This document shows, one piece after another, positions 1 to 13,600 of a stretch of 64,000 nt of DNA. The translations under genes were made by a program, and so were the position numbers. The stretch's first letter is position 1. Each line of letters starts with the position of its first letter. Location of the stretch: the IMG/VR virus record IMGVR_UViG_3300008107_000012. One strand, 5' to 3'. The notes beneath the pieces were generated by a model. The model was given only the letters and a program-made list of their open reading frames with translations. It did no database searches and was not told the origin of the DNA. Origin of the DNA: a virus.

Positions 1-1
1 A

Positions 2-148
2 TACGTTGACCGTATCCTTGATAACATGAGCACCAAAGATTTGATGCGAATTGTTGGAGACCAACTGGATGAAAACTTCAGTTCTTATAGTGATGAAGAA
101 CTGATTGCTGAAATTACTGAATACTACCCTGAATTGCTTGAGGAGTGA
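2..148 (+). CDS. 5'-truncated small acidic early protein (YVDRILDNMSTKDLMRIVGDQLDENFSSYSDEELIAEITEYYPELLEE)
   Basis: Open frame from the window edge to TGA at 146-148; resembles the ORF at 2230-2457. Confidence 0.7.
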   Translation, partial: YVDRILDNMSTKDLMRIVGDQLDENFSSYSDEELIAEITEYYPELLEE

Positions 149-154
149 GAACTG

Positions 155-227
155 ATGTGCCAGTAATTCTTCTGGCACATTACACTCCCCAAACCCCACC
201 TGTCCCTGCTATACTGAACACAGTTCA
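155..227 (+). promoter_or_regulatory. Early promoter cassette: inverted repeat ATGTGCCAG-N8-CTGGCACAT, C-rich spacer, extended -10 TGcTATACT
   Basis: 9-bp IR at 155-163/172-180; -10 at 210-215; same layout at 984-1056. Confidence 0.7.
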
Positions 228-237
228 ACAAACGACC

Positions 238-654
238 ATGCCTGTGACTTTCACCGACAACTACAAAGAAGTTTTCGCAACCGAAACTGTTGAGAAAATT
301 GAAGAACTGCTGGAAGATAACTATTGCCTGGAAGACATCCTTGAGTTTATTGACCAAAATACGGAAGAAGATTTCCGTGACTATTATGAAGAGTATGTGA
401 CTGCTGGTGAGGATTATGGTTACAGTGCAGTCGATGCTTTCATTGAAGAGTTTGGACTTGATTGTGTTTCTTCCTTTACCGAATCTTACCAAGGTGAGTA
501 TTCGAGTGAGGCACAGTTTGCAGAACAGTTCTGCGAAGACATGGGTTATGAAGTTCCTTCCTTTGTAATTGTTGATTGGCAAGAAACTTTTGATTACAAC
601 CTGCAGTATGACTATTCCTATGTGAATGGTTATGTCTTCAACAAAAACTTCTGA
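238..654 (+). CDS. ardA: ArdA-like antirestriction (DNA-mimic) protein
   Basis: Very acidic; C-terminal YQGEYSSEAQFAEQF...VDWQETF...DY...GYVF resembles ArdA domain 3; start moved to ATG 238, downstream of the promoter. Confidence 0.65.
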   Translation: MPVTFTDNYKEVFATETVEKIEELLEDNYCLEDILEFIDQNTEEDFRDYYEEYVTAGEDYGYSAVDAFIEEFGLDCVSSFTESYQGEYSSEAQFAEQFCEDMGYEVPSFVIVDWQETFDYNLQYDYSYVNGYVFNKNF

Positions 655-661
655 GTGAAGT

Positions 662-703
662 GAATCAGCACCTTATTTCTTTGAGGTGCTGATTCTTATT
701 TTT
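662..703 (+). terminator. Rho-independent terminator-like hairpin
   Basis: GAATCAGCACC...GGTGCTGATTC followed by TTATTTTT. Confidence 0.6.
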
Positions 704-722
704 CCACATTCCTCTTCTTTTA

Positions 723-971
723 ATGTTTAATCAACTTACATTTGTCCCGCATTGTATTCCAAATGCAGTGCAAGGAAAGTACAAGTTTTCCAATGGTTGG
801 GAGATTAGTGTAGTCTCTGGTGATGCTAAGTCTGGTCTATACGGTCGAATTGCTGAGTTTACTTATGAAGTTGCAATCTTTCGACCGAATGGAAACATGA
901 CTGAAGATGTAAGTGGTTGGAATACTAAAGAAGAAGTATCTGCGATGATGTGGGTACTGTCTCAACTCTAG
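723..971 (+). CDS. Hypothetical early phage protein
   Basis: ORF; FSNGWEISVV...YEVAI motif typical of small phage proteins. Confidence 0.7.
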   Translation: MFNQLTFVPHCIPNAVQGKYKFSNGWEISVVSGDAKSGLYGRIAEFTYEVAIFRPNGNMTEDVSGWNTKEEVSAMMWVLSQL

Positions 972-983
972 TCTCTTATACCG

Positions 984-1056
984 TGTGCCACTTGTTGAAG
1001 TGGCACAGTCAACCCCCCAGACCCCCCTCCCCCGTGGTAGACTGAACGGAGTTCAG
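984..1056 (+). promoter_or_regulatory. Early promoter cassette: TGTGCCACTT-N4-AAGTGGCACA, C-rich spacer, extended -10 TGgTAGACT
   Basis: 10-bp IR at 984-993/998-1007; -10 at 1038-1043, the same 31-nt gap from TGGCAC as copy 1. Confidence 0.7.
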
Positions 1057-1065
1057 GGATGAGAG

Positions 1066-1242
1066 ATGACCACTGCTCAACGGATGGAAAGGCAATTCTT
1101 CCTCAAAATGATTGCTCTTGTGAATGAAGTGCAAAGTGATAAAACCATTCTCAAGTCGCAATCTGGTTCTTATCGCAAATCTGCTTGGTGCAAGACGATT
1201 AAGAATCCCAAGCAAGATCAATCTGCACTTGCTTCTGTCTGA
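1066..1242 (+). CDS. Hypothetical 58-aa early protein (MTTAQRMERQFFLKM...)
   Basis: ATG just after the promoter with a GA-rich RBS; below the ORF-track cutoff. Confidence 0.6.
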   Translation: MTTAQRMERQFFLKMIALVNEVQSDKTILKSQSGSYRKSAWCKTIKNPKQDQSALASV

Positions 1243-1267
1243 GTTCTTTCTTTAACAACAAACCAAA

Positions 1268-1456
1268 ATGTGCTGCTTTCACACTGAACAAGAACCTGCA
1301 TTTGGACACTACACTTTTCGACACTACACTTTTCAGGTGTCGCAAGTATCCCGTGAAGATGCAATCGAACTGGCAAATGTTCTGAGGCAATCTGATTCTG
1401 AGTTCATCCGTAGGTTCGGACTTGAGATTGAATCTGAACTGATGGAACTGACATAG
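1268..1456 (+). CDS. Hypothetical early protein
   Basis: ORF in a tandem early cluster. Confidence 0.6.
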   Translation: MCCFHTEQEPAFGHYTFRHYTFQVSQVSREDAIELANVLRQSDSEFIRRFGLEIESELMELT

Positions 1457-1487
1457 ATTGTTTCTTTCTAACTCTTTTCTTCTACCA

Positions 1488-1673
1488 ATGATGAAACTCA
1501 CTAAAGCACAAAAAGAGATTCTTCTCACTCTTGAAAATGGTGATGAAGTTCTTAATTATGCACAACGTATGCGAGCACTTCAACCACTCATTGATGCTGG
1601 TATTGTTTACATTAAGGTGACGAATGATAAAAATGGTATCACAGAAGATGTAAGAGTTGCACTGGTTGATTAA
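1488..1673 (+). CDS. Hypothetical early protein (possible small winged-helix)
   Basis: MMKLTKAQKEIL...ALQPLIDAGIV pattern; start refined. Confidence 0.6.
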   Translation: MMKLTKAQKEILLTLENGDEVLNYAQRMRALQPLIDAGIVYIKVTNDKNGITEDVRVALVD

Positions 1674-1707
1674 ATCTTTCTTCCATCTGTCCCACATAAA
1701 CAATTTC

Positions 1708-1827
1708 ATGAACGATTCCACACTCGATCTCTTCACTGAACATGAAGATACACAAGATGCAACAATCGAAGAACTTGCTGCAGAACTTGAAATCACCGTT
1801 GATTATTACATCGCAGAGTTTATGTGA
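1708..1827 (+). CDS. Small acidic cyanophage-type protein (...EELAAELEITVDYYIAEFM)
   Basis: 39-aa ORF; the motif looks like small cyanophage early proteins. Confidence 0.6.
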   Translation: MNDSTLDLFTEHEDTQDATIEELAAELEITVDYYIAEFM

Positions 1828-1897
1828 TGATGTATGTGATGATGAGTATGATTCGATTCTAGAATCCTCTCCCACTGATTGGTTCTCTTTTTCTTCA

Positions 1898-2080
1898 ATG
1901 ACTCAAATGGACATCAACAACGCAATCTCTGCTGCACTTGCAAATCTCTCCAATCTGAATGAGCAAGTTTATGACTACTGGGTCACTGAACTTTATACTG
2001 ATGATGGTGAAATGATTGATGAGATGTGGAATGAGCAAACACTTTGTGAAATGGAAAAGGATGTGATGTATAACTTCTGA
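1898..2080 (+). CDS. Hypothetical acidic early protein
   Basis: 3' part of ORF 1742-2080; start refined to MTQMDINN. Confidence 0.55.
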   Translation: MTQMDINNAISAALANLSNLNEQVYDYWVTELYTDDGEMIDEMWNEQTLCEMEKDVMYNF

Positions 2081-2104
2081 AATCCAAATTAACTTCATTT
2101 CATT

Positions 2105-2233
2105 ATGATTAAGTACACTTTCGACATTCACACTCAACAACCAGTTTATGTTGTGTGTGATGTGAATCATCAAGCACTGATGATTACAACCAACATCTGC
2201 ACTGCAATCAACAAACTTCAACAATCCAAATGA
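2105..2233 (+). CDS. Hypothetical 42-aa protein
   Basis: ORF with ATGA overlap into the next gene. Confidence 0.5.
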   Translation: MIKYTFDIHTQQPVYVVCDVNHQALMITTNICTAINKLQQSK

Positions 2234-2457
2234 CTCTAACTCCTCAACAATTTGATGATCTTGTTTCTCTTTATGCTGAGAAACTTGTCGATGGAATGGA
2301 CATGAAAACTATGGAACAATTTGTCTATGACACTATTGTTCATAATGTGGAATGTATGTCAGAAGGTGATCTAATCAATGAGGTTGCTAATTATTTTGAT
2401 GATGAATTGCCCGAAATGATTAAATCTATTGGTGCTGATCCTGATACTATTCTCTGA
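2230..2457 (+). CDS. Small acidic early protein, paralog of 2-148
   Basis: ORF; shared Y-x3-[IL]-x-D-x-M-x2-K...S-x2-[DE]LI-x-E pattern. Confidence 0.7.
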   Translation: MTLTPQQFDDLVSLYAEKLVDGMDMKTMEQFVYDTIVHNVECMSEGDLINEVANYFDDELPEMIKSIGADPDTIL

Positions 2458-2462
2458 CGATT

Positions 2463-2669
2463 ATGATTTTTCAAGTTACTGAAATTGAGTTTGATTTCAC
2501 TGATGATCTTGATGAAGAAGCATTAGATCAAGAAACACAAGATGAGATTTATGATGAAGTTATCGGTCAAATCTGGGAAGCAGATGATGAAGATGATCTA
2601 GTTGAAGAGATTACTTGTGCTACAGGTTGGTGCATTAAATTCATTGATTATCGACACATTCTAGAATGA
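2463..2669 (+). CDS. Highly acidic cyanophage-type hypothetical protein
   Basis: IEFDF...WEADDEDDLVEEIT..TGWCI motif. Confidence 0.7.
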   Translation: MIFQVTEIEFDFTDDLDEEALDQETQDEIYDEVIGQIWEADDEDDLVEEITCATGWCIKFIDYRHILE

Positions 2670-2872
2670 CACTCTCAAATCAAACATTTCATAAACTCTC
2701 ATCTGCACTTAAAGATGAAGTTGTTGAGTTCATTATTTCAGATGAACGTTATGCAGAGTTCATGCTTCAAGAGATGATTCCTGAAGCAATTCAATCAAAA
2801 CTTGGTCCTGTAGATGATGAAGTATTGATGCAACTTTCCTTCTGTATTTTCGACCTGATTATCCTTCAATGA
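2666..2872 (+). CDS. Hypothetical early protein
   Basis: ATGA-coupled ORF. Confidence 0.7.
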   Translation: MTLSNQTFHKLSSALKDEVVEFIISDERYAEFMLQEMIPEAIQSKLGPVDDEVLMQLSFCIFDLIILQ

Positions 2873-3036
2873 CACAATACACTTATACTGTTATTGGTGG
2901 TACAAATGAGTATGAATGTGATGTTGCATCACTTCAACTGTTTGATCGAAAATCACAAGCACAACAGTATGCAGAAGATATAGAAAAGATGTGGGGTTAT
3001 GAGTATGTTTCTATTTCTGTAAAGGAGATTCAATGA
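2869..3036 (+). CDS. Hypothetical 55-aa protein (MTQYTYTVIGG...)
   Basis: ATGA-coupled on both sides; below the track cutoff. Confidence 0.6.
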   Translation: MTQYTYTVIGGTNEYECDVASLQLFDRKSQAQQYAEDIEKMWGYEYVSISVKEIQ

Positions 3037-3122
3037 AGAAGAAAAAGAAAGAAAAGATTGAACTACTGTCTAAAGCACAAGATGGTAATGAACTTCTTAT
3101 TATTCTCAAAGCACTGAAATGA
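3033..3122 (+). CDS. Hypothetical 29-aa basic peptide (MKKKKKEKIELLSKAQDGNELLIILKALK)
   Basis: AAGGAG RBS; ATGA overlaps at both ends. Confidence 0.5.
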   Translation: MKKKKKEKIELLSKAQDGNELLIILKALK

Positions 3123-3358
3123 ATCTTTATATCATCAATGATGTTCTTTATGATTACACTGCAGGAATGTGTGTAATTGCTGCTGAATCTCTACAACGTT
3201 GCGAACAAGTTTTTATGAAAGAATTTACATGTGATGATGACAGTAATTATACTAAACAGGAAAGGCAAAATGAGTTTGATGTTGCAGGAATTAAAGTGAT
3301 TGAGAATGTTCCTTACGAGAAGGAAGAAGTTGTATCCTATGTTTATGGTGGAGGTTGA
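3119..3358 (+). CDS. Hypothetical early protein
   Basis: VLYDYTAGMCVIAAES...YVYGGG. Confidence 0.7.
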   Translation: MNLYIINDVLYDYTAGMCVIAAESLQRCEQVFMKEFTCDDDSNYTKQERQNEFDVAGIKVIENVPYEKEEVVSYVYGGG

Positions 3359-3362
3359 TAAA

Positions 3363-3560
3363 ATGACTCTTCCATCTTACAATGCAATCTCTTTTCATTC
3401 TGAAGAAGAACATCAAGCAGCACTGTATGATGCTTGTCTGTTGATTGTGAATACTTACAACCAAACAGATATGCTGGATGGTTATGATGATCGTGCTTTA
3501 ACTTCATACGACTTTATGAAGTTTGCTCGTCGTATTATTAACAATTACGATTGCAACTGA
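3363..3560 (+). CDS. Hypothetical early protein
   Basis: GGAGG upstream; start refined to MTLPSYN. Confidence 0.65.
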   Translation: MTLPSYNAISFHSEEEHQAALYDACLLIVNTYNQTDMLDGYDDRALTSYDFMKFARRIINNYDCN

Positions 3561-3561
3561 A

Positions 3562-3720
3562 ATGACTACTACCTACCAACTGATTGAGATTCTTCAAGAA
3601 AAGTGTCTTGAAGATAATGATTTAATGTTTACAATCATTGATGAGTATGTTTCCTCTATGAATGAAGATGAATTAAAGACGTTGGAAGATTTTGTTGTGA
3701 ACAATTTTGGAGATGATTGA
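3562..3720 (+). CDS. Hypothetical acidic protein
   Basis: Start refined to MTTTYQLIE. Confidence 0.6.
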   Translation: MTTTYQLIEILQEKCLEDNDLMFTIIDEYVSSMNEDELKTLEDFVVNNFGDD

Positions 3721-3810
3721 ATGAAAGTATAACAATAACGTTATATTAAAAAACGTATTAAAAAACATATATTACTGTTTTATCTCTTTGTGTTGATTTG
3801 ATGACTAATG

Positions 3811-3900
3811 CCTTCTAGGTCTTGATTCTTATGTTCTATAAACCCTTCTAGACCTTGATTCTTATAATCAATTAAATGCGTCTGGGTCTTGTGATCTTAG
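3811..3900. repeat. Three ~22-bp direct repeats, period 33-35 bp (CCTTCTAG[GT/AC]CTTGATTCTTAT)
   Basis: Copies at 3811-3832, 3844-3865 and a degenerate one at 3879-3900. Confidence 0.7.
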
Positions 3901-3905
3901 CCCGC

Positions 3906-3934
3906 ACTCTATCACATCTCCGCACAAAAGTCAA
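3906..3934 (-). promoter_or_regulatory. Leftward sigma70-type promoter TTGACT-N17-TAGAGT (TG extension)
   Basis: Reverse complement of 3929-3934 and 3906-3911; no ORF downstream. Confidence 0.55.
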
Positions 3935-4108
3935 GTACCCCCAGGACACATAAAAAACCCCCACACCCCACATTATAACAATATCACACTTCTGTTATAT
4001 CTTATAACACACTCCCAGACATTCATATAACACTTCACCAGACACTTCTGTATGCCCCTGTAAGGCACTCATAAACTCTCTCAGGGGTCATAGTACTGAA
4101 TTGCCATC

Positions 4109-4681
4109 CTAAAGTATAAAGTTAGAAAAGTCCGGTAGTTTCTTATCATCCTTAAGATTACTTTTTTGATTTTTTACTTGTGCCCTTATATTCTCTTTTC
4201 TTTTCTCTAAGTTGATTTCGTTAATGCTTTTATTTTCAATTACTTTGTTTTGACATAGTTTTTCTTCTAATTCACAGTCCATAGAACTAATAAAATCAAT
4301 AAAACTTTCTCTAATCTTTTTATATTCACTTAAAGGAAGTTTTTCAAGTTTCTTTATCTGTGTGTTTTTCCATTCTAAATGAGTTAGAAGATTGCTTTGT
4401 TGTTTTAATAACTCAGCAAAAGTATTATCAATCCATTCATTTATAGAATTGATGGTATTATCTTTAGTTTTCTCTTTTTGATAGATTATATCTTCAGTAT
4501 CACTTTTTGATATTTTTAATATTTCTGTTTTATTTTTAATAATATCTCCAATTCCTTTTTTACGATTGAGATTGAAAGTGGAGATTGAATTGAATTCTTT
4601 TTTAATGTCCTCTATTTGGATATAATCTAATCCATCAACATTAAAGACTTCATTTAACTTTTTACAGTTAAAGTGTTCCAT
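4109..4681 (-). CDS. Orphan Lys/Ile/Glu-rich, probably coiled-coil protein; only credible minus-strand gene
   Basis: 190-aa ORF in very AT-rich DNA with a dedicated late promoter (TATAAATA on - strand, 4708-4715). Confidence 0.7.
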   Translation of the reverse strand: MEHFNCKKLNEVFNVDGLDYIQIEDIKKEFNSISTFNLNRKKGIGDIIKNKTEILKISKSDTEDIIYQKEKTKDNTINSINEWIDNTFAELLKQQSNLLTHLEWKNTQIKKLEKLPLSEYKKIRESFIDFISSMDCELEEKLCQNKVIENKSINEINLEKRKENIRAQVKNQKSNLKDDKKLPDFSNFIL

Positions 4682-4687
4682 ATCTGT

Positions 4688-4787
4688 TCTGTTTGGGTTG
4701 CAGAAGTTATTTATATTAAAGGGAGCAGAGAGAATCTAACTCTGCTCCCCGTCTGTAAAGTGCAACCCAAACAGACATTATATTTAT
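4688..4787 (-). promoter_or_regulatory. Dual late promoters with nested inverted repeats (candidate antisense sRNA and its target 5'UTR)
   Basis: 15-bp IR 4688-4702/4761-4775; 10-bp IR 4721-4730/4740-4749; late boxes at 4708-4715 and 4781-4787. Confidence 0.65.
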
Positions 4788-5013
4788 CAAATACCCAGTA
4801 TTGATAAATATCATAAAACCCTGATAATTGTATATAATTGAATATTAAGTATATAAATAACCGAGTATGAAATACAATAATTAGGATTGAACTTAAAGTA
4901 AATTTCTATTCCAAGAGAGCACAATAGGCAGTTCACCTGATGAGATAAGTCTTTCGCACAGGACAAATAGAAATCTCTGCTACTTTCAGTAATGATTATT
5001 GTTTATAGTATAA

Positions 5014-5330
5014 AAAGTTCATTCGTTATTAGATAATTGATGTATAATATTATCACATAATCATTATATTATAAATTGAATTAAAAGTTCATTCGTGATT
5101 AGATAGATTTCGTATGCTTTCTTATAATAGAAGAGCACTACGCATTATCATCACAAAGTTCATTCGTGATTAGATATGCTTCGTATGAGATTTTCACATA
5201 TAAGCATAGAACAAGATTGACTTTTGTGATTGATTCGTGTATAATAGAATTCGTTTATAAGAATAGACTTTGACCTTTTATAAAGAAGTGTTTATAAGGG
5301 GTTGATTCGTTGTGTCTATGAGTTCGTGTA
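5014..5330. repeat. Array of five ~71-bp-period units; core AAAGTTCATTCGT[T/G]ATTAGATA, degenerating to TTGATTCGT
   Basis: Near-identical 22-mers at 5014, 5084, 5155; TTCGT cores at 5022, 5092, 5163, 5234, 5306. Confidence 0.8.
5217..5245 (+). promoter_or_regulatory. sigma70-type promoter TTGACT-N17-TATAAT
   Basis: Near-consensus boxes, 17-bp spacer. Confidence 0.65.
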
Positions 5331-5341
5331 AGATATAACAC

Positions 5342-5370
5342 TTGACAGGGGATATAATTCCTGGTAGGAT
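5342..5370 (+). promoter_or_regulatory. sigma70-type promoter TTGACA-N17-TAGGAT (extended -10)
   Basis: Consensus -35 and 17-bp spacer upstream of ORF 5403. Confidence 0.65.
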
Positions 5371-5402
5371 AACGTTAAGCAGTTAGTTCTTCTCATCGAC
5401 TT

Positions 5403-5570
5403 ATGGCTAGTTCGTACCTCTTAGCACAAAAGAATAAGTATCGTATCACGTTAGAACTTGACGTTCTGGGTGATTTCGACCCTCATCAGATTGATTGGAA
5501 GAAACTCTTTGAACTTGAGCATAATGAATCAGTCAAGAGTTATGTAGAAGACCTCTCTGTGCCCTGGTAA
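5403..5570 (+). CDS. Cyanophage-type hypothetical 55-aa protein (MASSYLLAQKNKYRITLELDVLGDFDPHQIDWKKLFEL...)
   Basis: ORF with its own promoter; below the track cutoff. Confidence 0.7.
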   Translation: MASSYLLAQKNKYRITLELDVLGDFDPHQIDWKKLFELEHNESVKSYVEDLSVPW

Positions 5571-5983
5571 TAGTAATACTATCAGTACTTTCAGTTGATA
5601 TAATTATACTTTGCGTCGTTCTTTATACATTCTTCGTGTCAGTTGTTTAGATTTTATCGACAATGTGCTGGCAGTTGATATAAAGAATGGTGTAAAATAT
5701 AATTATATCGTGGAAATGTTCGTGTTGGCAGTATAAACAACTGCACTGATGTATTATAATACACTAGAAGATGGGGGCAGTTGATGTAAAATAGACGAAT
5801 AACTATACTTTATTCGTTGTCAGTTTGTTATTCGTTATAGCAGTTATTTGATGTTGTTTGTTATTGTTTATATTTTGCGTTGCCGTTGCCCCCCGTATAT
5901 AAAAACCCAAACTACCCTAACCTACAGAGGTGACAAATCGACCTCTAAATATCACTCTCATAAAATTTTTCCGGACCTATAAG

Positions 5984-6127
5984 ATGAAAAGAAAACCCCC
6001 CTATTGGAATTTCTGGAAGGTAGTCTTTGCGGGATGGTTAATACGATATCCTGGAAAAATGTTTAGAATTATCGGAGTCCCCCTCGGAATTCTCATAGTG
6101 GTAATATATAATGCATTGACGAAATAA
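5984..6127 (+). CDS. Small membrane protein (47 aa)
   Basis: Hydrophobic C-terminal helix; late box TAAATA at 5946-5951. Confidence 0.6.
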   Translation: MKRKPPYWNFWKVVFAGWLIRYPGKMFRIIGVPLGILIVVIYNALTK

Positions 6128-6148
6128 AAAAATTCCGGAAAAAATTTT

Positions 6149-6349
6149 ATGGAAAATACTGAAAAATTATATCACATCTACGCAAAGGATCGGTGCATTT
6201 ATCACAGTTTACCAGAGAACAAATTCTCTGAGACCTGGGATATGCTGCACAGAATGGTTGACTTATTAGGTGCGAATATTTCAAAGGAAGATTTACAATA
6301 TGAAGAAGTGACTGTCAATAGACTCATAGCACAAAATGCCTCATATTGA
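6149..6349 (+). CDS. Cyanophage-type hypothetical protein
   Basis: YHIYAKDRCIYHSL motif; directly upstream of the GT-like gene. Confidence 0.75.
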   Translation: MENTEKLYHIYAKDRCIYHSLPENKFSETWDMLHRMVDLLGANISKEDLQYEEVTVNRLIAQNASY

Positions 6350-6374
6350 CAAATACTAAATAGGACGATAAAAT
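6346..6374 (+). promoter_or_regulatory. Composite promoter: TTGACA-N17-TAAAAT with an embedded late box TAAATA (6357-6362)
   Basis: Direct motif match. Confidence 0.6.
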
Positions 6375-6397
6375 TGATCTGAAGGTTAATTTAACTT

Positions 6398-7165
6398 ATG
6401 GCAAAAGGATTTACAGTAAAAGCAACAGCACCAAAACCCAAAGAACAAGAATGGGATATTGATGCAATCAAAGAAAGAATGAAAGGGAAGTCAATTGTAT
6501 TCTGTCTTCCAGGTCGTGGTTGTTCTTTCATTTTTCTCAAAGCATTTGTACAACTCTGTTTTGACCTTGTACAAAACGGAATGAGTATTCAGATTTCTCA
6601 AGATTACTCATCAATGGTGAACTTTGCCCGTTGTAAGGTTCTTGGGGCAAATGTACTTCGTGGTCCCAAACAAATTCCTTGGGATGGTAAACTAAACTAT
6701 GATTATCAACTCTGGATTGATAGTGACATTGTTTTTGATTCTAACAAATTCTGGCAACTCTGTGATGTTGCTCTTCCTGCTGAAGGAGATGAGAAAGAAA
6801 TTGTTGCAGGTTGGTATGCAACCGAAGATGGTGTCACAACATCTGTCGCACATTGGTTAGAGGAAGATGATTTCCGTAAAAACGGTGGTGTGATGAATCA
6901 TGAAACCGTGGAATCAATCTCCAAGCGTAGAAAGCCTTTCACAGTTGACTACACTGGTTTTGGTTGGGTTCTGATTAAGAACGGTGTCTTTGAGAATCTT
7001 GAATATCCTTGGTTTGCTCCTAAGATGCAAGTCTTTGAATCTGGTGCAGTTCAGGATATGTGCGGAGAAGATGTATCATTCTGTCTTGATGCAAAAGAGG
7101 CAGGTTTTGAAATCTGGTGCGATCCTCGTATCAGAGTTGGACATGAGAAAACTCGTATTATTTGA
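6398..7165 (+). CDS. GT-A fold glycosyltransferase-like protein (conserved in cyanomyoviruses)
   Basis: WIDSDIVF DxD motif; GFGWVLIK..VF, GEDVSFC, RVGHEK. Confidence 0.75.
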   Translation: MAKGFTVKATAPKPKEQEWDIDAIKERMKGKSIVFCLPGRGCSFIFLKAFVQLCFDLVQNGMSIQISQDYSSMVNFARCKVLGANVLRGPKQIPWDGKLNYDYQLWIDSDIVFDSNKFWQLCDVALPAEGDEKEIVAGWYATEDGVTTSVAHWLEEDDFRKNGGVMNHETVESISKRRKPFTVDYTGFGWVLIKNGVFENLEYPWFAPKMQVFESGAVQDMCGEDVSFCLDAKEAGFEIWCDPRIRVGHEKTRII

Positions 7166-7185
7166 TTTTATTTTGGAGGTAATTT

Positions 7186-7326
7186 ATGGCTAAAGGTGGA
7201 TCTAATAAGACTCTGTTTGAACCCGGAGCACCTAAGAAAACTCGTCAAGGACGTTCTCCTCGTACATTACTCAGTGCTACTTCTCGTAATGGACGTAAGA
7301 AGAAATATAGGGGACAAGGTAAATAA
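7186..7326 (+). CDS. Small basic 46-aa protein (MAKGG...KKTRQG...KKYRGQGK)
   Basis: GGAGGT RBS at 7175-7180; below the track cutoff. Confidence 0.75.
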   Translation: MAKGGSNKTLFEPGAPKKTRQGRSPRTLLSATSRNGRKKKYRGQGK

Positions 7327-7332
7327 TCCTTT

Positions 7333-7560
7333 ATGATACAATTAAATCCTCAAATCCCAGTTATTACTCCAAAGGGTAATGGTTGGGCTTTTTTTGTAAT
7401 TGATAGATCTCAAGAACATGATCTTGAATGGGTTGTTTTTCTAGATAGTAATGGTGAATGTTGGACATTTAAAAATTCCGACATACGAATTCAAAAAAAT
7501 TATACATTACATAGAAACAACCCATCAGGATTCAACTCATGTACTACTCAGATCCAGTAG
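7333..7560 (+). CDS. Hypothetical protein
   Basis: ORF; late box TAAATA at 7320-7325. Confidence 0.7.
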   Translation: MIQLNPQIPVITPKGNGWAFFVIDRSQEHDLEWVVFLDSNGECWTFKNSDIRIQKNYTLHRNNPSGFNSCTTQIQ

Positions 7561-8186
7561 ATGAATGGAATTCAATTCTCGAAGAAGATCTATGGGTTTA
7601 CAATAAACTATTTCTAAATCGTCGTTTGGGGCATCTCTGTGGACCTACAGGATGCCCCGTTCCACATCCAGGTCATTATATAGTTCGACCAAGTATCAAT
7701 TTACTCGGTATGAGTCGATTTTCTCGTATAGAATGGATTGATAAATCTACAGATCATTTACATCCATCAGAATTTTGGTGTGAAATTTTTGTTGGAGAGC
7801 ATTTAAGTGTCGATTTTTTTCAAAAAATACCAAGATTAGTTGTTTTAGGTGAAAGAAACTCTCAAGATCCATTGTATAAATGGAAAAAATGGTCCAAAAT
7901 TGATCGAGACATCAACTTTCCTTCAATATTAAATAGTTTAAAAGGTAATTATGAGTGGATTAATTGCGAATTTATTAATAATAACCTCATAGAGGTGCAT
8001 TTTAGACAAAATCCTGACTTTAGATTCGGAAATTCTGTTGCTTTTCCTCTTTGGAAAGGAGAAAATCAAATAAAAACTGATGATTTGGAGTTTATAACTG
8101 ATGAAGATTACTTAAGAAAGGGATTTTACATTGATAAACGGGATAGGAACCCCGTAAAAAGTTCTGATTTAACGAATCAGGAGTAA
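7539..8186 (+). CDS. ATP-grasp-like protein
   Basis: YIVRP..NL.GM loop, WCE.F.GEH.SVD, INCEF...LIEVHFR (ExN/HxR-like) pattern. Confidence 0.5.
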   Translation: MYYSDPVDEWNSILEEDLWVYNKLFLNRRLGHLCGPTGCPVPHPGHYIVRPSINLLGMSRFSRIEWIDKSTDHLHPSEFWCEIFVGEHLSVDFFQKIPRLVVLGERNSQDPLYKWKKWSKIDRDINFPSILNSLKGNYEWINCEFINNNLIEVHFRQNPDFRFGNSVAFPLWKGENQIKTDDLEFITDEDYLRKGFYIDKRDRNPVKSSDLTNQE

Positions 8187-8189
8187 AAA

Positions 8190-8351
8190 ATGGATCAAAA
8201 AATGCTTAGAGAAATCTTTAATGATGATTTAACACCAAAAAAGCATAATTTTGAAGTTCAAAACGAAATTCACGAGAAAATTCGTAATGATGATGACTAT
8301 GATGATTGGGAGTATGGAACTGAACCTCTTTATGAATCAAAAAAACCATAA
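8190..8351 (+). CDS. Small acidic 53-aa protein (MDQKMLREIFND...DDDYDDWEYGTEP)
   Basis: AGGAG RBS; precedes gp25. Confidence 0.7.
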   Translation: MDQKMLREIFNDDLTPKKHNFEVQNEIHEKIRNDDDYDDWEYGTEPLYESKKP

Positions 8352-8378
8352 TAAATAAGATAGATTTATTAATTTTTT

Positions 8379-8780
8379 ATGCCTGTAGAACGGGTAAGTA
8401 AGGGTTTCAAAGACATAAGTATGACTTTTCAGGTTAACCCTGTAAATTATGACCTTATTGGTCTTAAAAATGAAACCGCTATTTCCCGTTCTATTCGCAA
8501 TTTAGTCTTTACTCTTCCTGGTGAAAGATTTTTTAATCCAAACCTAGGTTCAAGAGTAAGTAGACAACTTTTTGAAAATATGGATGCAGTTTCCGCATCA
8601 ATTATTGAGGATGAAATTAGAGATACTATTAATAAGTATGAGCCAAGAGTTAGACTTATTAATGTAGAAGTAACACCAAATTATGATGAAAATGAATTTA
8701 ATGTAACAATTACATATAGAATAGTTGGAATTGATGTTTTACCTCAACAACTAACATTTGCACTACAGCCAACACGATAA
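8379..8780 (+). CDS. gp25: Baseplate wedge subunit gp25
   Basis: GERFFNPNLGS, YEPRV motifs; late box at 8352-8357. Confidence 0.92.
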   Translation: MPVERVSKGFKDISMTFQVNPVNYDLIGLKNETAISRSIRNLVFTLPGERFFNPNLGSRVSRQLFENMDAVSASIIEDEIRDTINKYEPRVRLINVEVTPNYDENEFNVTITYRIVGIDVLPQQLTFALQPTR

Positions 8781-10697
8781 ATGGCATTAGTTAATTTTAC
8801 CAATTTAGATTTCGATCAAATAAAAAGTTCTCTTAGAGAATATCTAAGATCTAATTCAAATTTTACTGACTATGACTTTGAAGGTTCAAATCTTTCAACA
8901 ATCATAGACCTTCTTGCATATAATACATATATTTCCTCATACAATGCTAATATGATTAGCAATGAGGTCTTTATTGATAGTGCAACTCTTAGAGAAAACG
9001 TTGTTTCTCTTGCAGGACATATTGGTTATGTTCCAAGATCTAAAACATCAGCAAAGGCAAATATATCATTTTTTATAGATACCTCGAATTTCACTACAAA
9101 TCCAAAAACAATTACTTTACAGAGAGGTACAGTGTGTTCCTCTTCAAATAATTTTGGGTCTCAGAGTTACACATTTTCAATTTTAAACGATATTACAGTT
9201 CCAGTTACAAATAATATTGCTTTTTTTGAAAATATTGATGTATATGAAGGAACTTATTTACTTGAGAGATTTGTTGTAGACAGCAATAATAAAAATCAAA
9301 GATTTATTCTTTCAAATGCAAATATTGACACATCATCAATAGTTGTTGAAGTAAGAAATTCTTTTGAAAGTACTGTAATTAGAAAATTTAACATTTGTAC
9401 GGATTTTTGTGCTGTAGATGCTGAATCTAGAGTTTTCTTTATCAAAGAAATAGAAGATCAAAGATATGAGATTGTTTTTGGTGATGGAATTTTTGGTAAG
9501 AAATTAGATAACAATAATATCGTTGAAGTATATCACGTAGTAAGTAATGGTGGTGAAAGTGCCAATGGAATAACATCATTCAATTTTAGTGGTAGATTAT
9601 TTGATAATAATGGTAGAATTGTTTCCACTGGAATATCATTAATTACTTCAAATTCTCCTTCTCAGGGAGGAAGAGAAATTGAATCCGTAGAGTCTATTCG
9701 TAAGTTTGCTCCTCGTTTATACTCCTCACAGAAAAGAGCAGTAACAACCGAAGATTATGAAACCATTGTTGCTTCTTTATATCCAGAAGCAGAGTCTGTT
9801 TCTGTATTTGGGGGAGAGGAACTTGATCCTCCTAAATATGGAAAAGTTTTCATCGCAATAAAACCAATTTCCGGAGATTTTCTTGCAAATTCTATTAAGG
9901 AAAATCTAAAAAATCTACTAAGAAAATACAGTGTTGCTGGTATTGTAACTGAAATAGTAGATTTAAAATATCTCTATATTGAATTTGACTCTTCAGTCTA
10001 CTATAATACTAATCTATCACAATCTTCAAGTAAACTTCAAACAAGAGTCATTAACAATATAATTAAATACTCGGATTCATCAGAGTTAAATAAATATGGT
10101 GCTAGATTTAAATATAGTAAATTCTTAAAAGTAATTGATGAGACTGATAGATCAATAACATCAAACATTACTAATATAGTAATGAGAAGAGATCTAAGAG
10201 CAGTTTTAGGTCAATTCTCAGAATATGAAATTTGTTTTGGAAACCAATTTAATATTAATGATTCGAAGGGTTATAATATAAAATCTTCTGGATTTAGATT
10301 GAATGGATATAATTATGACTTATATCTTTCTGATATTCCAAATTCAAATTTAAAGAACGGAACTATAATATTTTTCCGTATTGATACAGAGACATCAACT
10401 CCAATAATTGTAAATAACAATGCAGGGACAATAAATTATGAAAAAGGAGAAATTATAATCTTTCCAACAAATCTAATATCAACTTCAAAACAAAAATCAA
10501 ATGAACCAATTATAGAAATATCAGTTACTCCGTATTCAAATGATATTATTGGTCTTCAGGACCTATATTTGCAATTAGATATTGAAAATAGTAATGTAGA
10601 TATGATTGTGGATACTATTTCTTCCGGATCGGATGTTTCTGGGTCAATATATAAAACATCATCTAGTTATACTACACGGGAATTTATAAGAAAGTAA
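8781..10697 (+). CDS. gp6: Baseplate wedge subunit gp6
   Basis: LDFDQIK, FTDYDFEGS, FGDGIFGK, RAVT.EDY motifs. Confidence 0.93.
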   Translation: MALVNFTNLDFDQIKSSLREYLRSNSNFTDYDFEGSNLSTIIDLLAYNTYISSYNANMISNEVFIDSATLRENVVSLAGHIGYVPRSKTSAKANISFFIDTSNFTTNPKTITLQRGTVCSSSNNFGSQSYTFSILNDITVPVTNNIAFFENIDVYEGTYLLERFVVDSNNKNQRFILSNANIDTSSIVVEVRNSFESTVIRKFNICTDFCAVDAESRVFFIKEIEDQRYEIVFGDGIFGKKLDNNNIVEVYHVVSNGGESANGITSFNFSGRLFDNNGRIVSTGISLITSNSPSQGGREIESVESIRKFAPRLYSSQKRAVTTEDYETIVASLYPEAESVSVFGGEELDPPKYGKVFIAIKPISGDFLANSIKENLKNLLRKYSVAGIVTEIVDLKYLYIEFDSSVYYNTNLSQSSSKLQTRVINNIIKYSDSSELNKYGARFKYSKFLKVIDETDRSITSNITNIVMRRDLRAVLGQFSEYEICFGNQFNINDSKGYNIKSSGFRLNGYNYDLYLSDIPNSNLKNGTIIFFRIDTETSTPIIVNNNAGTINYEKGEIIIFPTNLISTSKQKSNEPIIEISVTPYSNDIIGLQDLYLQLDIENSNVDMIVDTISSGSDVSGSIYKTSSSYTTREFIRK

Positions 10698-10698
10698 T

Positions 10699-13600
10699 AT
10701 GAAGAACTCAATTAAATTCTATTCAATTGTAGAAAGTCTCGTACCAGAGTACGTTAAAATAGAATTTCCGTTAGTTATAGAGTTTTTATCACAATATTAT
10801 AAATCTCAAGAAAATCAAAGTGCTGCTCTTGATATAATTCATAATATTGACAAGTATGTTCAAATTGATAGTGTTACAAATTTAGATTTAACAACGACAC
10901 TCACATACCCATTAGACTTTGAAAATGAAGTTTTTATATACTCAAGTAAAGATCTTCCAAAAAATTATGGATTAATTAAAATTGATAACGAAATTATTTG
11001 GTATGAAAGATTAGTAGAAGATACTATAACAACGGCAACATTTACAATAGAAGTAGGGTCAACTTCTATTGTTTCTTCAGATGTTAATGAGGATTGGATA
11101 GGAAAGATACTTATTATTAAAGACAATCAAGGAAATATTGTAAATACTACAAAAATTTTATCCATCGAAGATGGATTAAGTGTTCTTACAGATTCTCCTT
11201 TAATTATTGATACTGAAGTTAGTGTTTATAATTCATCAAATACATATACCTGCGAAATTAATGGAAATAAACTTACAAATTGTACTAGAGGATTTAATGC
11301 TACTGTAGCATATGATTCAGATAATACAACAGATGAACTTGTCTATGAAGAAACTTCAATTGACAGTCACGTATTAGGGTCAGAAATAACCAATTTAAGC
11401 ATAATATTTCTTACAGAATTCTTCAAAAAAATCAAAATTCAACTTGCTCCAGGATTTGAAGATGAAGAATTTTATGACCAAATCAATGAAGCAACATTTA
11501 TTCGCAATATAAAGCAATTTTACCAATCAAAGGGATCTGATTGCTCCTTTGAACTTCTTTTCAGAGCACTCTTTGGTGAAGATGTAAGTATCATTAGACC
11601 AAGAGATTTTGTTATTCAGTCTTCAGATGCTCAGTATAATGTTTTTAGAGATTTAGTTGTTGAACAATTTGAAGGAGACCCAGAAGATCTAGAAAACTTA
11701 ACTTTATATCAAGACGAATATCTTAACATCCCACAATCAAAGGGAACAATTGCTAAGGTAGAAAAAATTCAAAGAGGAAGTAACTTTTACTATACTATAA
11801 GTTTAGATCAAACAAAAGAAAATACTTATAGTTCAAATCTAGGGGAATTTACTATCCATCCAAAATCAAAAACTACAATAGATATCAGTTCTGGTAGTGA
11901 TTTTATTGATGTAGATTCAACTATAGGATTTCCAGACTCTGGTGAACTGTTAATTCAAAAAATAGATGGAACAACTTTTGTAGTATCTTACTTATCAAGA
12001 ACATCTACTCAATTTTTAGATTGCAGTGGTATAGTTCAAGATATTAGTGTAAATTCTACTATTAGATTAAATACTTTCGCTTATGGATACAATGGTTCTG
12101 AGCAGATTAAAGTTTTTGTAGGTGGGGTTTTATCTTCAGTAAATATTGAATCAACTCCATATTATTCATCCATAAATGAAAGAATAAAAATTAAAACTCT
12201 AGGCAAGAATTTAGAAACTGTAAAGTCTGAAAATTGGTTTTATAACATAACAACAAAATATAAATTAGAAAAAATTTCTTTAGTTGATACTGCTAATTTA
12301 GTTTATGAAGTTGTTTTATATGATGACAATATTTTAAAAGTAGGAGATTCTGTTACTTTATTATACAGTGAAGGATCTCCAAAAAATGGAACCATAGTAG
12401 GGCAATCAAACAAAAAAACATTTTTTGTTGTCGGATTTGAAGATGTAAATGAATCTATTAGTTATACATTAAGAAAAAATATTTTAAAAGTTAATTCGAT
12501 AAATTACCCAGAACTTTCAAAATATTCTACAAATGTTCAAAACGTTTATATTGATAAAGAGCAAAATATTTTTGTAAATTCGCAATCATTGCCAAATTAT
12601 ATTTTTGAACCATTATTAATAACTGATAGATCAGTGACTTTTTCTGGTTCATATATTGAATCTGAAATAATTAATGCAATTTCTCATAGATTTTACACTG
12701 GTGATGCTGTTGTTTATGTGCCAGGAGATAATAACAATAAGTTAGATCTTAAAAAAGGAATTTATTTTGTTTATGCTGTAGATCAAAATAATATTAAACT
12801 TGCTAGAAGTAGAGAAAATATCTACACGCAAAACTTTGTTAAAGTGACCGGTAGTGTTACAAATAATAAATTTGTGTTAGAATCATTTACAAATTCAACT
12901 CTTGACACTAAAAAATTACTACCTCAAAATATTTTTAGAGAACTATCAACTCCTAAAATTCCTGATAACAATTCTAACGTAGAAACTTTTCCAGGAACAA
13001 CTGGAATTTTTGTGAATGGAGTTGAGTTATTGAATTATAAATCTAAAGATGTTTTATATTATGGAGAAATAGAAGACATTTTTCCAACCGCATCAGGGAG
13101 TGGATATGATATTATTAATCCACCAGTATTAAGTATTGAAGATGATAATGGTTTTGGTGCAAATGGATACTTATCAATCAATGGATCTTTAGAAAGAGTT
13201 GATATTATTGATCCAGGTTTTGATTTCACAGAAACTCCTACTGTTATTATATCCGGTGGTAATGGAAAAGAAGCACAAGTTTCTTTGAACTTAGTATCAA
13301 TAGATTATTCAGCATCTTTTAATGCAAAGACAGGAATCAATACAGTAACTAATACTGTAGGTTTTACTACCTACCATAAATTTAGAAATAATGAAGTTGT
13401 TCTTTATGATCCACAAGGGCAAACTAAAATATCAGGGTTAAGTACAAATTCTCAATACTATGCATCTGTTATTGATGCATTTACGGTTAAATTATATAAT
13501 AATTTAGATGATGCTTCTATTGGAATCAATACTGTTAATTTGATTGGTATAGGTACTGGTAGACATTTGTTTAAATCTCTTTCAAAGAAAAAACAAATTG

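What the first reader, a model, noticed from the sequence alone, without database searches (positions are those of the whole stretch)
4109..4790. Candidate sRNA-guarded orphan gene: two tandem late promoters, one for an antisense RNA and one for its target mRNA
Seen on the minus strand: late box ATAAATA (4787-4781), then GUCUGU-uuggguugcacuuu-ACAGAC (a 6-bp hairpin with an exposed loop), then a 10-bp GC-rich hairpin GGGAGCAGAG/CUCUGCUCCC plus UUU (terminator-like, 4749-4718). A second late box TATAAATA (4715-4708) follows, then a ~21-nt leader containing UGCAACCCAAACAGA, and then the ATG of the 190-aa orphan. That 15-mer is the perfect complement of the 5' part of the upstream ~60-nt unit (4688-4702 vs 4761-4775). 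Knowledge: T4 blocks early translation of late genes such as e and I-TevI with cis hairpins, but there the upstream promoter is early or middle. Here both promoters are late-type and are separated by a terminator-like stem. Inference: a self-contained module in which a short RNA silences in trans (type I toxin-antitoxin-like), or switches in cis, the translation of a possibly toxic orphan protein. It is the only counter-oriented gene, and it sits next to the repeat array. This is my best candidate for an undescribed system.
Basis: partly seen in the sequence, partly recalled or inferred. Interest (0 to 1): 0.85.

Follow-up and report, generated by a model that had tools for sequence, protein, structure and literature searches.

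The report
Two-promoter RNA cassette gating a phage gene
The stretch is one copy of a roughly 100-base RNA control cassette, found in hundreds of related cyanophage contigs and usually in front of selfish nuclease genes, in which an upstream RNA unit pairs with the first 15 bases of the gene's messenger and probably keeps its translation low.

Summary
It is not a one-off. I collected 210 distinct copies from viral contigs.

The architecture runs: late box, 5 nt, 5' stem-loop, GC hairpin with U-tract, consensus TATAAATA, 4-5 nt, leader complementary to the stem-loop, AUG.

- **Usual cargo:** homing-endonuclease genes. Of 148 downstream genes, 71 carry NUMOD3 and 10 carry GIY-YIG.
- **This copy:** it fronts a 190-aa ORFan with no recognisable domain.
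- **Pairing is selected at RNA level:** cognate duplexes average -23 kcal/mol against -10 for non-cognate ones. There are 201 G·U pairs against 2 A·C mismatches. A 43%-identical homologue keeps the design with different letters.
- **Upstream box:** present in all 101 cassettes found without asking for it.

The hairpin with an embedded late promoter is a known device (T4 e, I-TevI; Aeh1 mobE; marine endonuclease genes, Dassa 2009). The universal upstream late box, the 5'-terminal stem-loop and the internal terminator are not explained by that cis model. Together they predict a discrete RNA of about 59 nt. Whether it exists and acts in trans is untested. I rate this a new variant of a known kind. 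The type I toxin-antitoxin reading is not supported.

The parts
4781..4788 (-). Box 1, a late-promoter-like GATAAATA (putative P1)
   Evidence: TAAATA is invariant in the homologous loci apart from one degenerate copy (L038). It is present in 101 of 101 cassettes found without demanding it, against a background of 0.8%. The same N[A/C]TAAATA forms precede structural genes in the window.
4751..4776 (-). 5' stem-loop of the upstream unit: a 6-bp stem (4776-4771 with 4756-4751) and a 14-nt loop. Bases 4775-4761 form the 5' arm.
   Evidence: The closing pair changes G-C, G-U, A-U among homologues. 194 of 210 family members have a 5'-terminal hairpin of at least 5 bp, with 76 distinct stems.
4718..4750 (-). 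GC-rich hairpin plus UUU, terminator-like but weak in this copy
   Evidence: The stem covaries among homologues. 167 of 210 family members have a T run of 4 or more just before box 2. The simple scan does not call this copy a terminator.
4718..4776 (-). Predicted RNA of about 59 nt from P1 (an anti-leader RNA). This is inferred, not observed.
   Evidence: Inferred from box 1 spacing, where the hairpin starts 4-6 nt after the box in 200 of 210 cassettes, together with the terminator-like end.
4708..4715 (-). Box 2, consensus late promoter TATAAATA (P2), lying between the two arms
   Evidence: NATAAATA in all homologues. TATAAATA in all five genome copies.
4688..4702 (-). 3' arm, which is the first 14-15 nt of the predicted P2 mRNA and complementary to 4775-4761
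   Evidence: I3. Duplex energy -26 kcal/mol. Covariation shown. In the family, leader pairing starts 4 nt after box 2 in 145 of 210 and ends 1-7 nt before AUG.
4109..4681 (-). 190-aa ORFan (P0001), the regulated gene
   Evidence: Homologues of 77-41% identity occur on phage-like metagenome contigs, always behind the cassette. No Pfam, PHROG or phage tblastn match. GC content is 24-29%.
4653..4672 (-). Conserved hairpin in codons 4-10 (6-bp stem, 8-nt loop)
   Evidence: Synonymous sites of Phe, Asn and Leu are invariant in all seven variants.

Best explanation
This is a late-gene 'anti-leader' cassette of the kind that accompanies homing-endonuclease genes in this cyanomyovirus lineage, here attached to a mobile-looking ORFan. 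Box 2, a consensus T4-type late promoter, starts the mRNA at about 4702/4701. The whole leader up to 7 nt before the AUG can pair with the 5' stem-loop of the unit encoded just upstream. That unit has its own late-type box at the same 5-nt spacing, begins with a protective stem-loop that displays the complementary bases, and ends in a GC hairpin. It is therefore most likely made as a separate RNA of about 59 nt late in infection. Pairing occurs in trans with P2 transcripts, and in cis on any transcript that reads through the hairpin. It covers the ribosome landing site and keeps translation of the gene low or delayed. Shown: the anatomy, its conservation, RNA-level covariation of both the long-range pairing and the 5' stem-loop, universality of box 1, and the association with nuclease genes. 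Inferred: that box 1 fires, that the RNA ends at the hairpin, that it acts in trans, and that the effect is repression.
For: The cassette is conserved in all 7 variants of the ORFan locus, while the 5-nt spacers and the flanks vary. A 43%-identical homologue keeps the design with different arm and stem letters, and the two classes do not cross-pair: -20 to -26 against -10 to -15 kcal/mol. There are five copies in this genome and 210 distinct copies with 113 different leader starts. On 33 diverse copies, 82% of cells pair against 65% in shuffles (0 of 500 as high), and the covariation score is 0.45 against 0.17 shuffled and 0.08-0.21 slid. Cognate duplexes average -23.1 and non-cognate -10.1 kcal/mol. 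There are 201 G·U pairs against 2 A·C mismatches, so selection acts on RNA of this strand. Box 1 is present in 101 of 101 cassettes retrieved without it in the query. The same box variants precede structural genes. A 5'-terminal hairpin is present in 194 of 210. The duplex runs from the leader's start to 1-7 nt before AUG. At this locus there is no co-directional upstream gene and no good sigma-70 promoter to supply the 5' arm.
Against: The terminator of this copy is weak, with three U and a 9-nt loop, so much of the P1 transcription may read through, and the pairing would then be intramolecular. Box 1 is less canonical than box 2: 30% of copies read CTAAATA. In 44 of 181 cases its TAA serves as the stop codon of the upstream gene, which gives it a possible second reason to be conserved. 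Most cassettes (85 against 12 scorable) do lie behind a co-directional gene, as the classical cis model expects. Cassettes sharing a locus cross-pair less often than random pairs, but not significantly (1% against 4.7%, p = 0.09).
Confidence: 0.5

Rival explanations
1. A purely cis device, as in T4 e, I-TevI and segB and in Aeh1 mobE. The upstream arm silences any transcript that enters from upstream, the GC hairpin terminates most of those transcripts, and only P2 transcripts are translated. Under this reading box 1 is not a working promoter. It is retained as AT-rich stop-codon-bearing DNA at the junction of the element.
For: The mechanism is established in T4-type phages and was proposed for marine endonuclease genes. 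Box 2 lies between the arms in every copy. 85 of 97 scorable cassettes follow a co-directional ORF, often within a few bases. Box 1's TAA is the upstream stop codon in 24% of cases.
Against: It does not explain why TAAATA is present in 101 of 101 cassettes at a fixed spacing of about 5 nt, mirroring box 2. It does not explain why the 5' arm is folded into its own covarying stem-loop that starts at the predicted +1. It does not explain why the design is maintained, with compensatory changes, where no upstream gene reads into it: this locus, and L038 against L039 with different neighbours.
Confidence: 0.3
2. The upstream RNA is made and pairs in trans, but it acts positively or neutrally on expression. 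A duplex at the extreme 5' end of the mRNA could protect it from 5'-end-dependent RNase E or RNase J decay, or create a processing site.
For: The duplex begins at the predicted first nucleotide of the mRNA. The leader alone has little structure to be opened.
Against: The duplex reaches to 1-7 nt from the AUG and covers the purine-rich stretch where a ribosome would bind, which in every studied T4 case reduces translation. No inhibitory leader structure exists that pairing would relieve.
Confidence: 0.1
3. A DNA-level element: the inverted repeat serves recombination or shuffling of gene modules, like PeSL motifs, or forms a cruciform or protein-binding site.
For: The cassette is repeated in the genome and precedes unrelated genes. 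The same arms occur before different genes. The ORFan sits at different positions relative to its 55-aa neighbour.
Against: The 100-to-1 excess of G·U pairs over A·C mismatches shows selection on single-stranded RNA of this strand, not on duplex DNA. The arms are the most variable part, which is poor substrate for homologous recombination. Shuffling may be a side effect.
Confidence: 0.05

Closest known systems
T4 gene e, soc, 49, I-TevI and segB, and Aeh1 mobE: an RBS-sequestering hairpin with a late promoter inside it (PMC2988022, PMC3014915)
   Same: An RNA helix covers the translation start region. A TATAAATA late promoter lies between the two strands, so late transcripts lack the 5' strand. 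The device is typically attached to homing-endonuclease genes.
   Different: Here the helix is split by a GC hairpin with a U-tract. The 5' strand forms its own stem-loop. A second late-type box sits 5 nt upstream of that stem-loop in every copy. At this locus no early or middle transcript is expected to supply the 5' strand.
Hairpins with TATAAATA in the 5' UTRs of metagenomic GIY-YIG and Vsr-like endonuclease genes ('fractured genes', Dassa et al. 2009, PMC2677866)
   Same: The source is aquatic metagenomic, phage-like contigs. Two complementary conserved motifs form a stem upstream of the endonuclease ORF with an embedded late-promoter element. This is probably the same or a sister cassette.
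   Different: It was read as a cis hairpin only. The held text mentions no upstream box, 5' stem-loop or internal terminator, and I could not compare sequences because the figures are not held. The present copy fronts a non-nuclease ORFan.
PeSL composite terminator / early-promoter motifs of T4-type phages (PMC2839356, PMC4122927)
   Same: Short composite promoter-plus-stem-loop cassettes, repeated through a genome and flanking variable ORFs in plastic regions.
   Different: PeSLs carry sigma-70-type early promoters and have no leader-complementary arm. Their proposed role is recombination, not RNA pairing.
Adjacent, non-overlapping sRNA/mRNA pairs such as IstR-1/tisB or OhsC/ShoB (type I toxin-antitoxin), from my own knowledge
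   Same: A short RNA encoded next to its target, complementary over about 15-20 nt to the target's 5' UTR.
   Different: Those toxins are small hydrophobic peptides and the RNA genes are divergent. Here the two units are in tandem on one strand under the same promoter class, and the protein is 190 aa and hydrophilic.

Membership tests
T4-type late-promoter-in-hairpin translational control | An RNA helix covers the ribosome-binding region of the gene | tested here: met
   The duplex spans the leader from about +1 to 7 nt before AUG. In the family it ends 1-7 nt before AUG.
T4-type late-promoter-in-hairpin translational control | A late promoter lies between the two strands, so late mRNA lacks the 5' strand | tested here: met
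   Box 2 at 4708-4715 lies between the arms at 4775-4761 and 4702-4688. The same holds in all copies. The transcription start itself was not mapped.
T4-type late-promoter-in-hairpin translational control | The 5' strand is supplied by early or middle read-through transcripts from upstream genes | tested here: not met
   This is a divergent intergenic region with no co-directional upstream gene and only a 9-of-12 sigma-70-like match about 350 nt away. The cassette has its own late-type box and a hairpin with U-tract between the arms. Elsewhere in the family the feature is often met.
Endonuclease-gene 5' UTR hairpins of Dassa et al. 2009 | Sits in the 5' UTR of a free-standing homing-endonuclease gene | tested here: not met
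   P0001 has no nuclease or NUMOD domain. The family as a whole meets the feature: 71 NUMOD3, 13 I-HmuI-like, 10 GIY-YIG, 1 HNH and 1 EndoVII among 148 genes.
Endonuclease-gene 5' UTR hairpins of Dassa et al. 2009 | Two complementary motifs form the stem, with TATAAATA inside | tested here: met
Type I toxin-antitoxin system | The toxin is a small hydrophobic membrane peptide | tested here: not met
   The protein is 190 aa, rich in Lys, Glu and Asn, with no hydrophobic segment. The model shows long helices at low confidence.
Type I toxin-antitoxin system | An antitoxin RNA is expressed and pairs with the toxin mRNA | tested here: inconclusive
   Complementarity and covariation are shown. The existence of the RNA was not testable.
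PeSL motifs | A stem-loop coupled to a sigma-70-type early promoter | tested here: not met
   Both boxes are late-type TAAATA, and no -35/-10 pair lies in the cassette.
Any Rfam 15 family | A covariance-model match | tested here: not met
   No match at E up to 1 in window 1-12000.

The most novel reading that the evidence does not exclude
Cyanomyoviruses encode a large family of late small RNAs of about 55-60 nt, one per mobile gene cassette. Each has its own seed displayed in a 5' stem-loop and acts in trans on the 5' end of the cognate endonuclease or ORFan mRNA. This would be a built-in, sequence-addressable governor for selfish genes, and the first trans-acting regulatory RNA class in T4-type phages.
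Probability: 0.42. Interest if true: 0.8.

Novelty: new variant of a known kind. Interest (0 to 1): 0.62.

Why it matters
Homing endonucleases and the genes that travel with them shape phage genome mosaicism, and how phages restrain them is known only from a few coliphage cases. [quoted passage not shown] If the upstream unit is a real small RNA, it would be an abundant, easily recognisable family absent from Rfam, with hundreds of natural orthogonal seed/leader pairs. That would be useful both for understanding late-gene control in ecologically dominant cyanophages and as a set of ready-made RNA regulators. If it is only cis, the finding still extends the T4 hairpin paradigm to a composite hairpin-terminator design and shows that non-nuclease ORFans can capture it.

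Tried and rejected
- **RNA families:** Rfam gave nothing and there are no tRNAs.
- **The protein:** Pfam, PHROGs and tblastn against phage records gave nothing significant for P0001. AlphaFold2 on 6 sequences gave pLDDT 59 and pTM 0.22, so I ran no fold search. The protein atlas gave only sub-threshold leads.
- **Exact-word scan:** the exact 16-mer of the 5' arm hit 32 viral loci, but only 3 were true cassettes and the rest were chance or other genes. That arm sequence was seen only before homologues of this ORFan.
- **Orthogonality:** the test among cassettes sharing a locus gave a trend only (p = 0.09).
- **Other targets:** a search of the 95-kb record for other targets of the loop found none in a sense orientation.
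- **Rejected readings:** type I toxin-antitoxin (the protein is unsuitable); PeSL (no early promoter); DNA cruciform or recombination site (G·U asymmetry); attenuator or riboswitch (no alternative to the terminator stem, since the 3' arm lies downstream of it).
- **Papers not held:** Gibb & Edgell 2007. A search for Syn9 start-site data found nothing.

Full report
**1. What is there**

The window comes from a T4-like cyanomyovirus. The only DNA-level matches are to Synechococcus and Prochlorococcus myophages, over ORF 6398-7165. From about 8.4 kb onward the window is a plus-strand structural module.

- Box 1 lies at 4788-4781.
- A 6-bp hairpin pairs 4776-4771 with 4756-4751.
- A 10-11 bp GC stem pairs 4750-4740 with 4730-4721, followed by UUU.
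- A consensus TATAAATA lies at 4715-4708.
- A 15-nt stretch at 4702-4688 is perfectly complementary to 4775-4761 (I3).
- The ATG is at 4681 and opens a 190-aa ORF.

The 141-nt region folds to -46 kcal/mol with z = -6.6.

**2. The ORF and its relatives**

P0001 has no Pfam, PHROG or phage tblastn match. It is nonetheless a real, conserved gene. Homologues of 77-41% identity occur on short phage-like contigs from freshwater and marine (TARA) metagenomes.

All of them carry the cassette. In the alignment both TAAATA boxes, the 5' unit and the leader are conserved, while the two 5-nt spacers and everything upstream of box 1 vary. Two gene calls (P0002, P0004) run their N-terminus through the cassette, which is an annotation artefact.

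The most distant homologue (P0007, 43% identity) has the same design written in other letters. It shows compensatory changes in the long-range arms, in the small hairpin and in the GC hairpin. The two classes do not cross-pair: cognate duplexes are -20 to -26 kcal/mol and cross-class duplexes -10 to -15. Two contigs of that homologue diverge exactly at box 1, so the cassette and the gene travel together.

**3. It is a family**

I verified this on the 95-kb record. Four further copies lie upstream of my window on the plus strand, with the same order of parts and different arms.
- Two of them precede NUMOD3 proteins.
- One precedes a protein with a GIY...YIG-like N-terminus.

In total I collected 210 distinct cassettes with 113 different leader starts.

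Of 148 downstream genes, 71 carry NUMOD3, 13 carry an I-HmuI-type NUMOD domain and 10 carry the GIY-YIG domain. Single genes carry HNH or endonuclease VII. The cassette is therefore the usual 5' region of free-standing homing-endonuclease genes in this lineage.

One cultured phage, S-SRM01, carries it before an annotated HNH endonuclease.

**4. What is selected**

- **Long-range pairing.** On 33 diverse copies, 82% of cells pair against 65% in shuffles (0 of 500 as high). There are 90 double-change cells against 30. The covariation score is 0.45, against 0.17 shuffled and 0.08-0.21 for slid partners. Cognate duplexes average -23.1 kcal/mol and non-cognate -10.1.
- **RNA, and this strand.** There are 201 G·U pairs against 2 A·C single mismatches.
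- **The 5' stem-loop.** 194 of 210 copies have a hairpin of at least 5 bp starting within the first four transcribed positions. There are 76 different stems and the median loop is 15 nt.
- **Box 1.** I scanned with only the terminator plus box 2, so box 1 was not part of the query. All 101 distinct cassettes retrieved had TAAATA about 5 nt before the hairpin: 81 by script, and the other 20 visible in the printed sequences. The background is 0.8% of windows.
- **Geometry.** The hairpin starts 4-6 nt after box 1 in 200 of 210. Leader pairing starts 4 nt after box 2 in 145 of 210 and ends 1-7 nt before the AUG.
- **Box variants.** The forms seen at box 1 (NATAAATA and NCTAAATA) also precede structural genes in the window.

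**5. Mechanism**

The core of the cassette is a helix over the translation start with a late promoter between its strands. That is the device established for T4 e, soc, 49, I-TevI and segB and for Aeh1 mobE. It was also noted in the 5' UTRs of metagenomic endonuclease genes by Dassa et al. 2009.

That cis model does not account for three universal features: the upstream late-type box, the self-folded 5' arm, and the hairpin with U-tract between the arms. Together these three look like a small RNA gene, with a promoter, a 5' stem-loop presenting a seed, and a terminator. At this locus nothing else could transcribe the 5' arm, because the region is divergent and lacks a good sigma-70 promoter on that strand.

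I therefore favour a late 'anti-leader' RNA of about 59 nt (4776 to about 4718). It would occlude the leader of P2 transcripts in trans, and that of read-through transcripts in cis (confidence 0.5).

The pure cis reading remains viable (0.3), for four reasons:
- This copy's terminator is weak.
- Box 1 doubles as a stop codon for the upstream gene in 24% of cases.
- Most cassettes do follow a co-directional gene.
- No transcript data could be obtained.

A stabilising role for the duplex (0.1) and a DNA-level role (0.05, disfavoured) are minor rivals.

**6. The orphan**

Several features fit a mobile gene that has captured, or kept, an endonuclease-type cassette:
- GC content is 24-29%, against 35-40% around it.
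- It is counter-oriented to its neighbours.
- Its position varies relative to the conserved 55-aa neighbour.
- In two relatives a c3-like endonuclease gene lies directly downstream.

Its 5' unit closely resembles units that precede endonuclease-like genes, for example L168 and L174. Its function is unknown. The model is low-confidence and helical. Nothing supports a type I toxin.

**7. Novelty**

No Rfam family matches. [quoted passage not shown] PeSL motifs are a different, early-promoter composite.

The finding is a new variant of a known kind. The tandem late promoter and small-RNA reading is the new, testable part.

Noticed in passing
window 3906-3934 (minus strand), with L041:3760-3800 and L046:2560-2600: A sigma-70-like TTGACT-17-TAGAGT promoter lies downstream of the ORFan. 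It is conserved in relatives, where a c3-like GIY-YIG gene follows on the same strand. In the window no ORF follows, so this is either a relic of a lost endonuclease gene or a non-coding transcript.
   Followed up: partly
window 4653-4672 (minus strand): A 6-bp hairpin lies inside codons 4-10 of the ORFan. The synonymous positions of Phe, Asn and Leu are invariant across homologues down to 43% identity, which suggests an RNA-level constraint just after the start codon.
   Followed up: partly
window 4777-4814 and 4852-4859: Box 1 is one arm of a 14-nt inverted repeat (4777-4790 with 4801-4814), which places a mirror GATAAATAT box on the plus strand. A further plus-strand TATAAATA lies at 4852-4859, sharing 11 nt with box 2 and its flanks. 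These may be divergent late promoters. The arrangement is not conserved in the closest relative, L001.
   Followed up: no
genome record outside the window (G000 about 94657-94553, 83835-83740, 75165-75064, 72126-72025; loci L055-L058): Four further cassettes of the same architecture lie before endonuclease-like genes. Copies 3 and 4 differ by a two-base swap in the loop that is mirrored in the leader.
   Followed up: yes
window 5014-5204: There are three copies of a roughly 70-nt periodic repeat with a shared 22-mer, in very AT-rich DNA between the divergent genes (D1).
   Followed up: no
window 4055-4087 (minus strand): A 6-bp GC hairpin with a 21-nt loop lies 22 nt after the ORFan's stop codon. 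A similar sequence is present in L041. It may be the mRNA 3' end structure.
   Followed up: no
L001 and L002 (proteins P0002, P0004): Public gene calls extend these homologues by about 29 residues at the N-terminus by reading through the cassette. The conserved start is the MEHFNC-type methionine.
   Followed up: yes
210 cassettes in loci L055-L265: In 44 of 181 cases the upstream ORF ends on a TAA inside box 1, so the cassette abuts or supplies the stop codon of the preceding gene. This fits insertion of the mobile unit directly at gene ends.
   Followed up: partly
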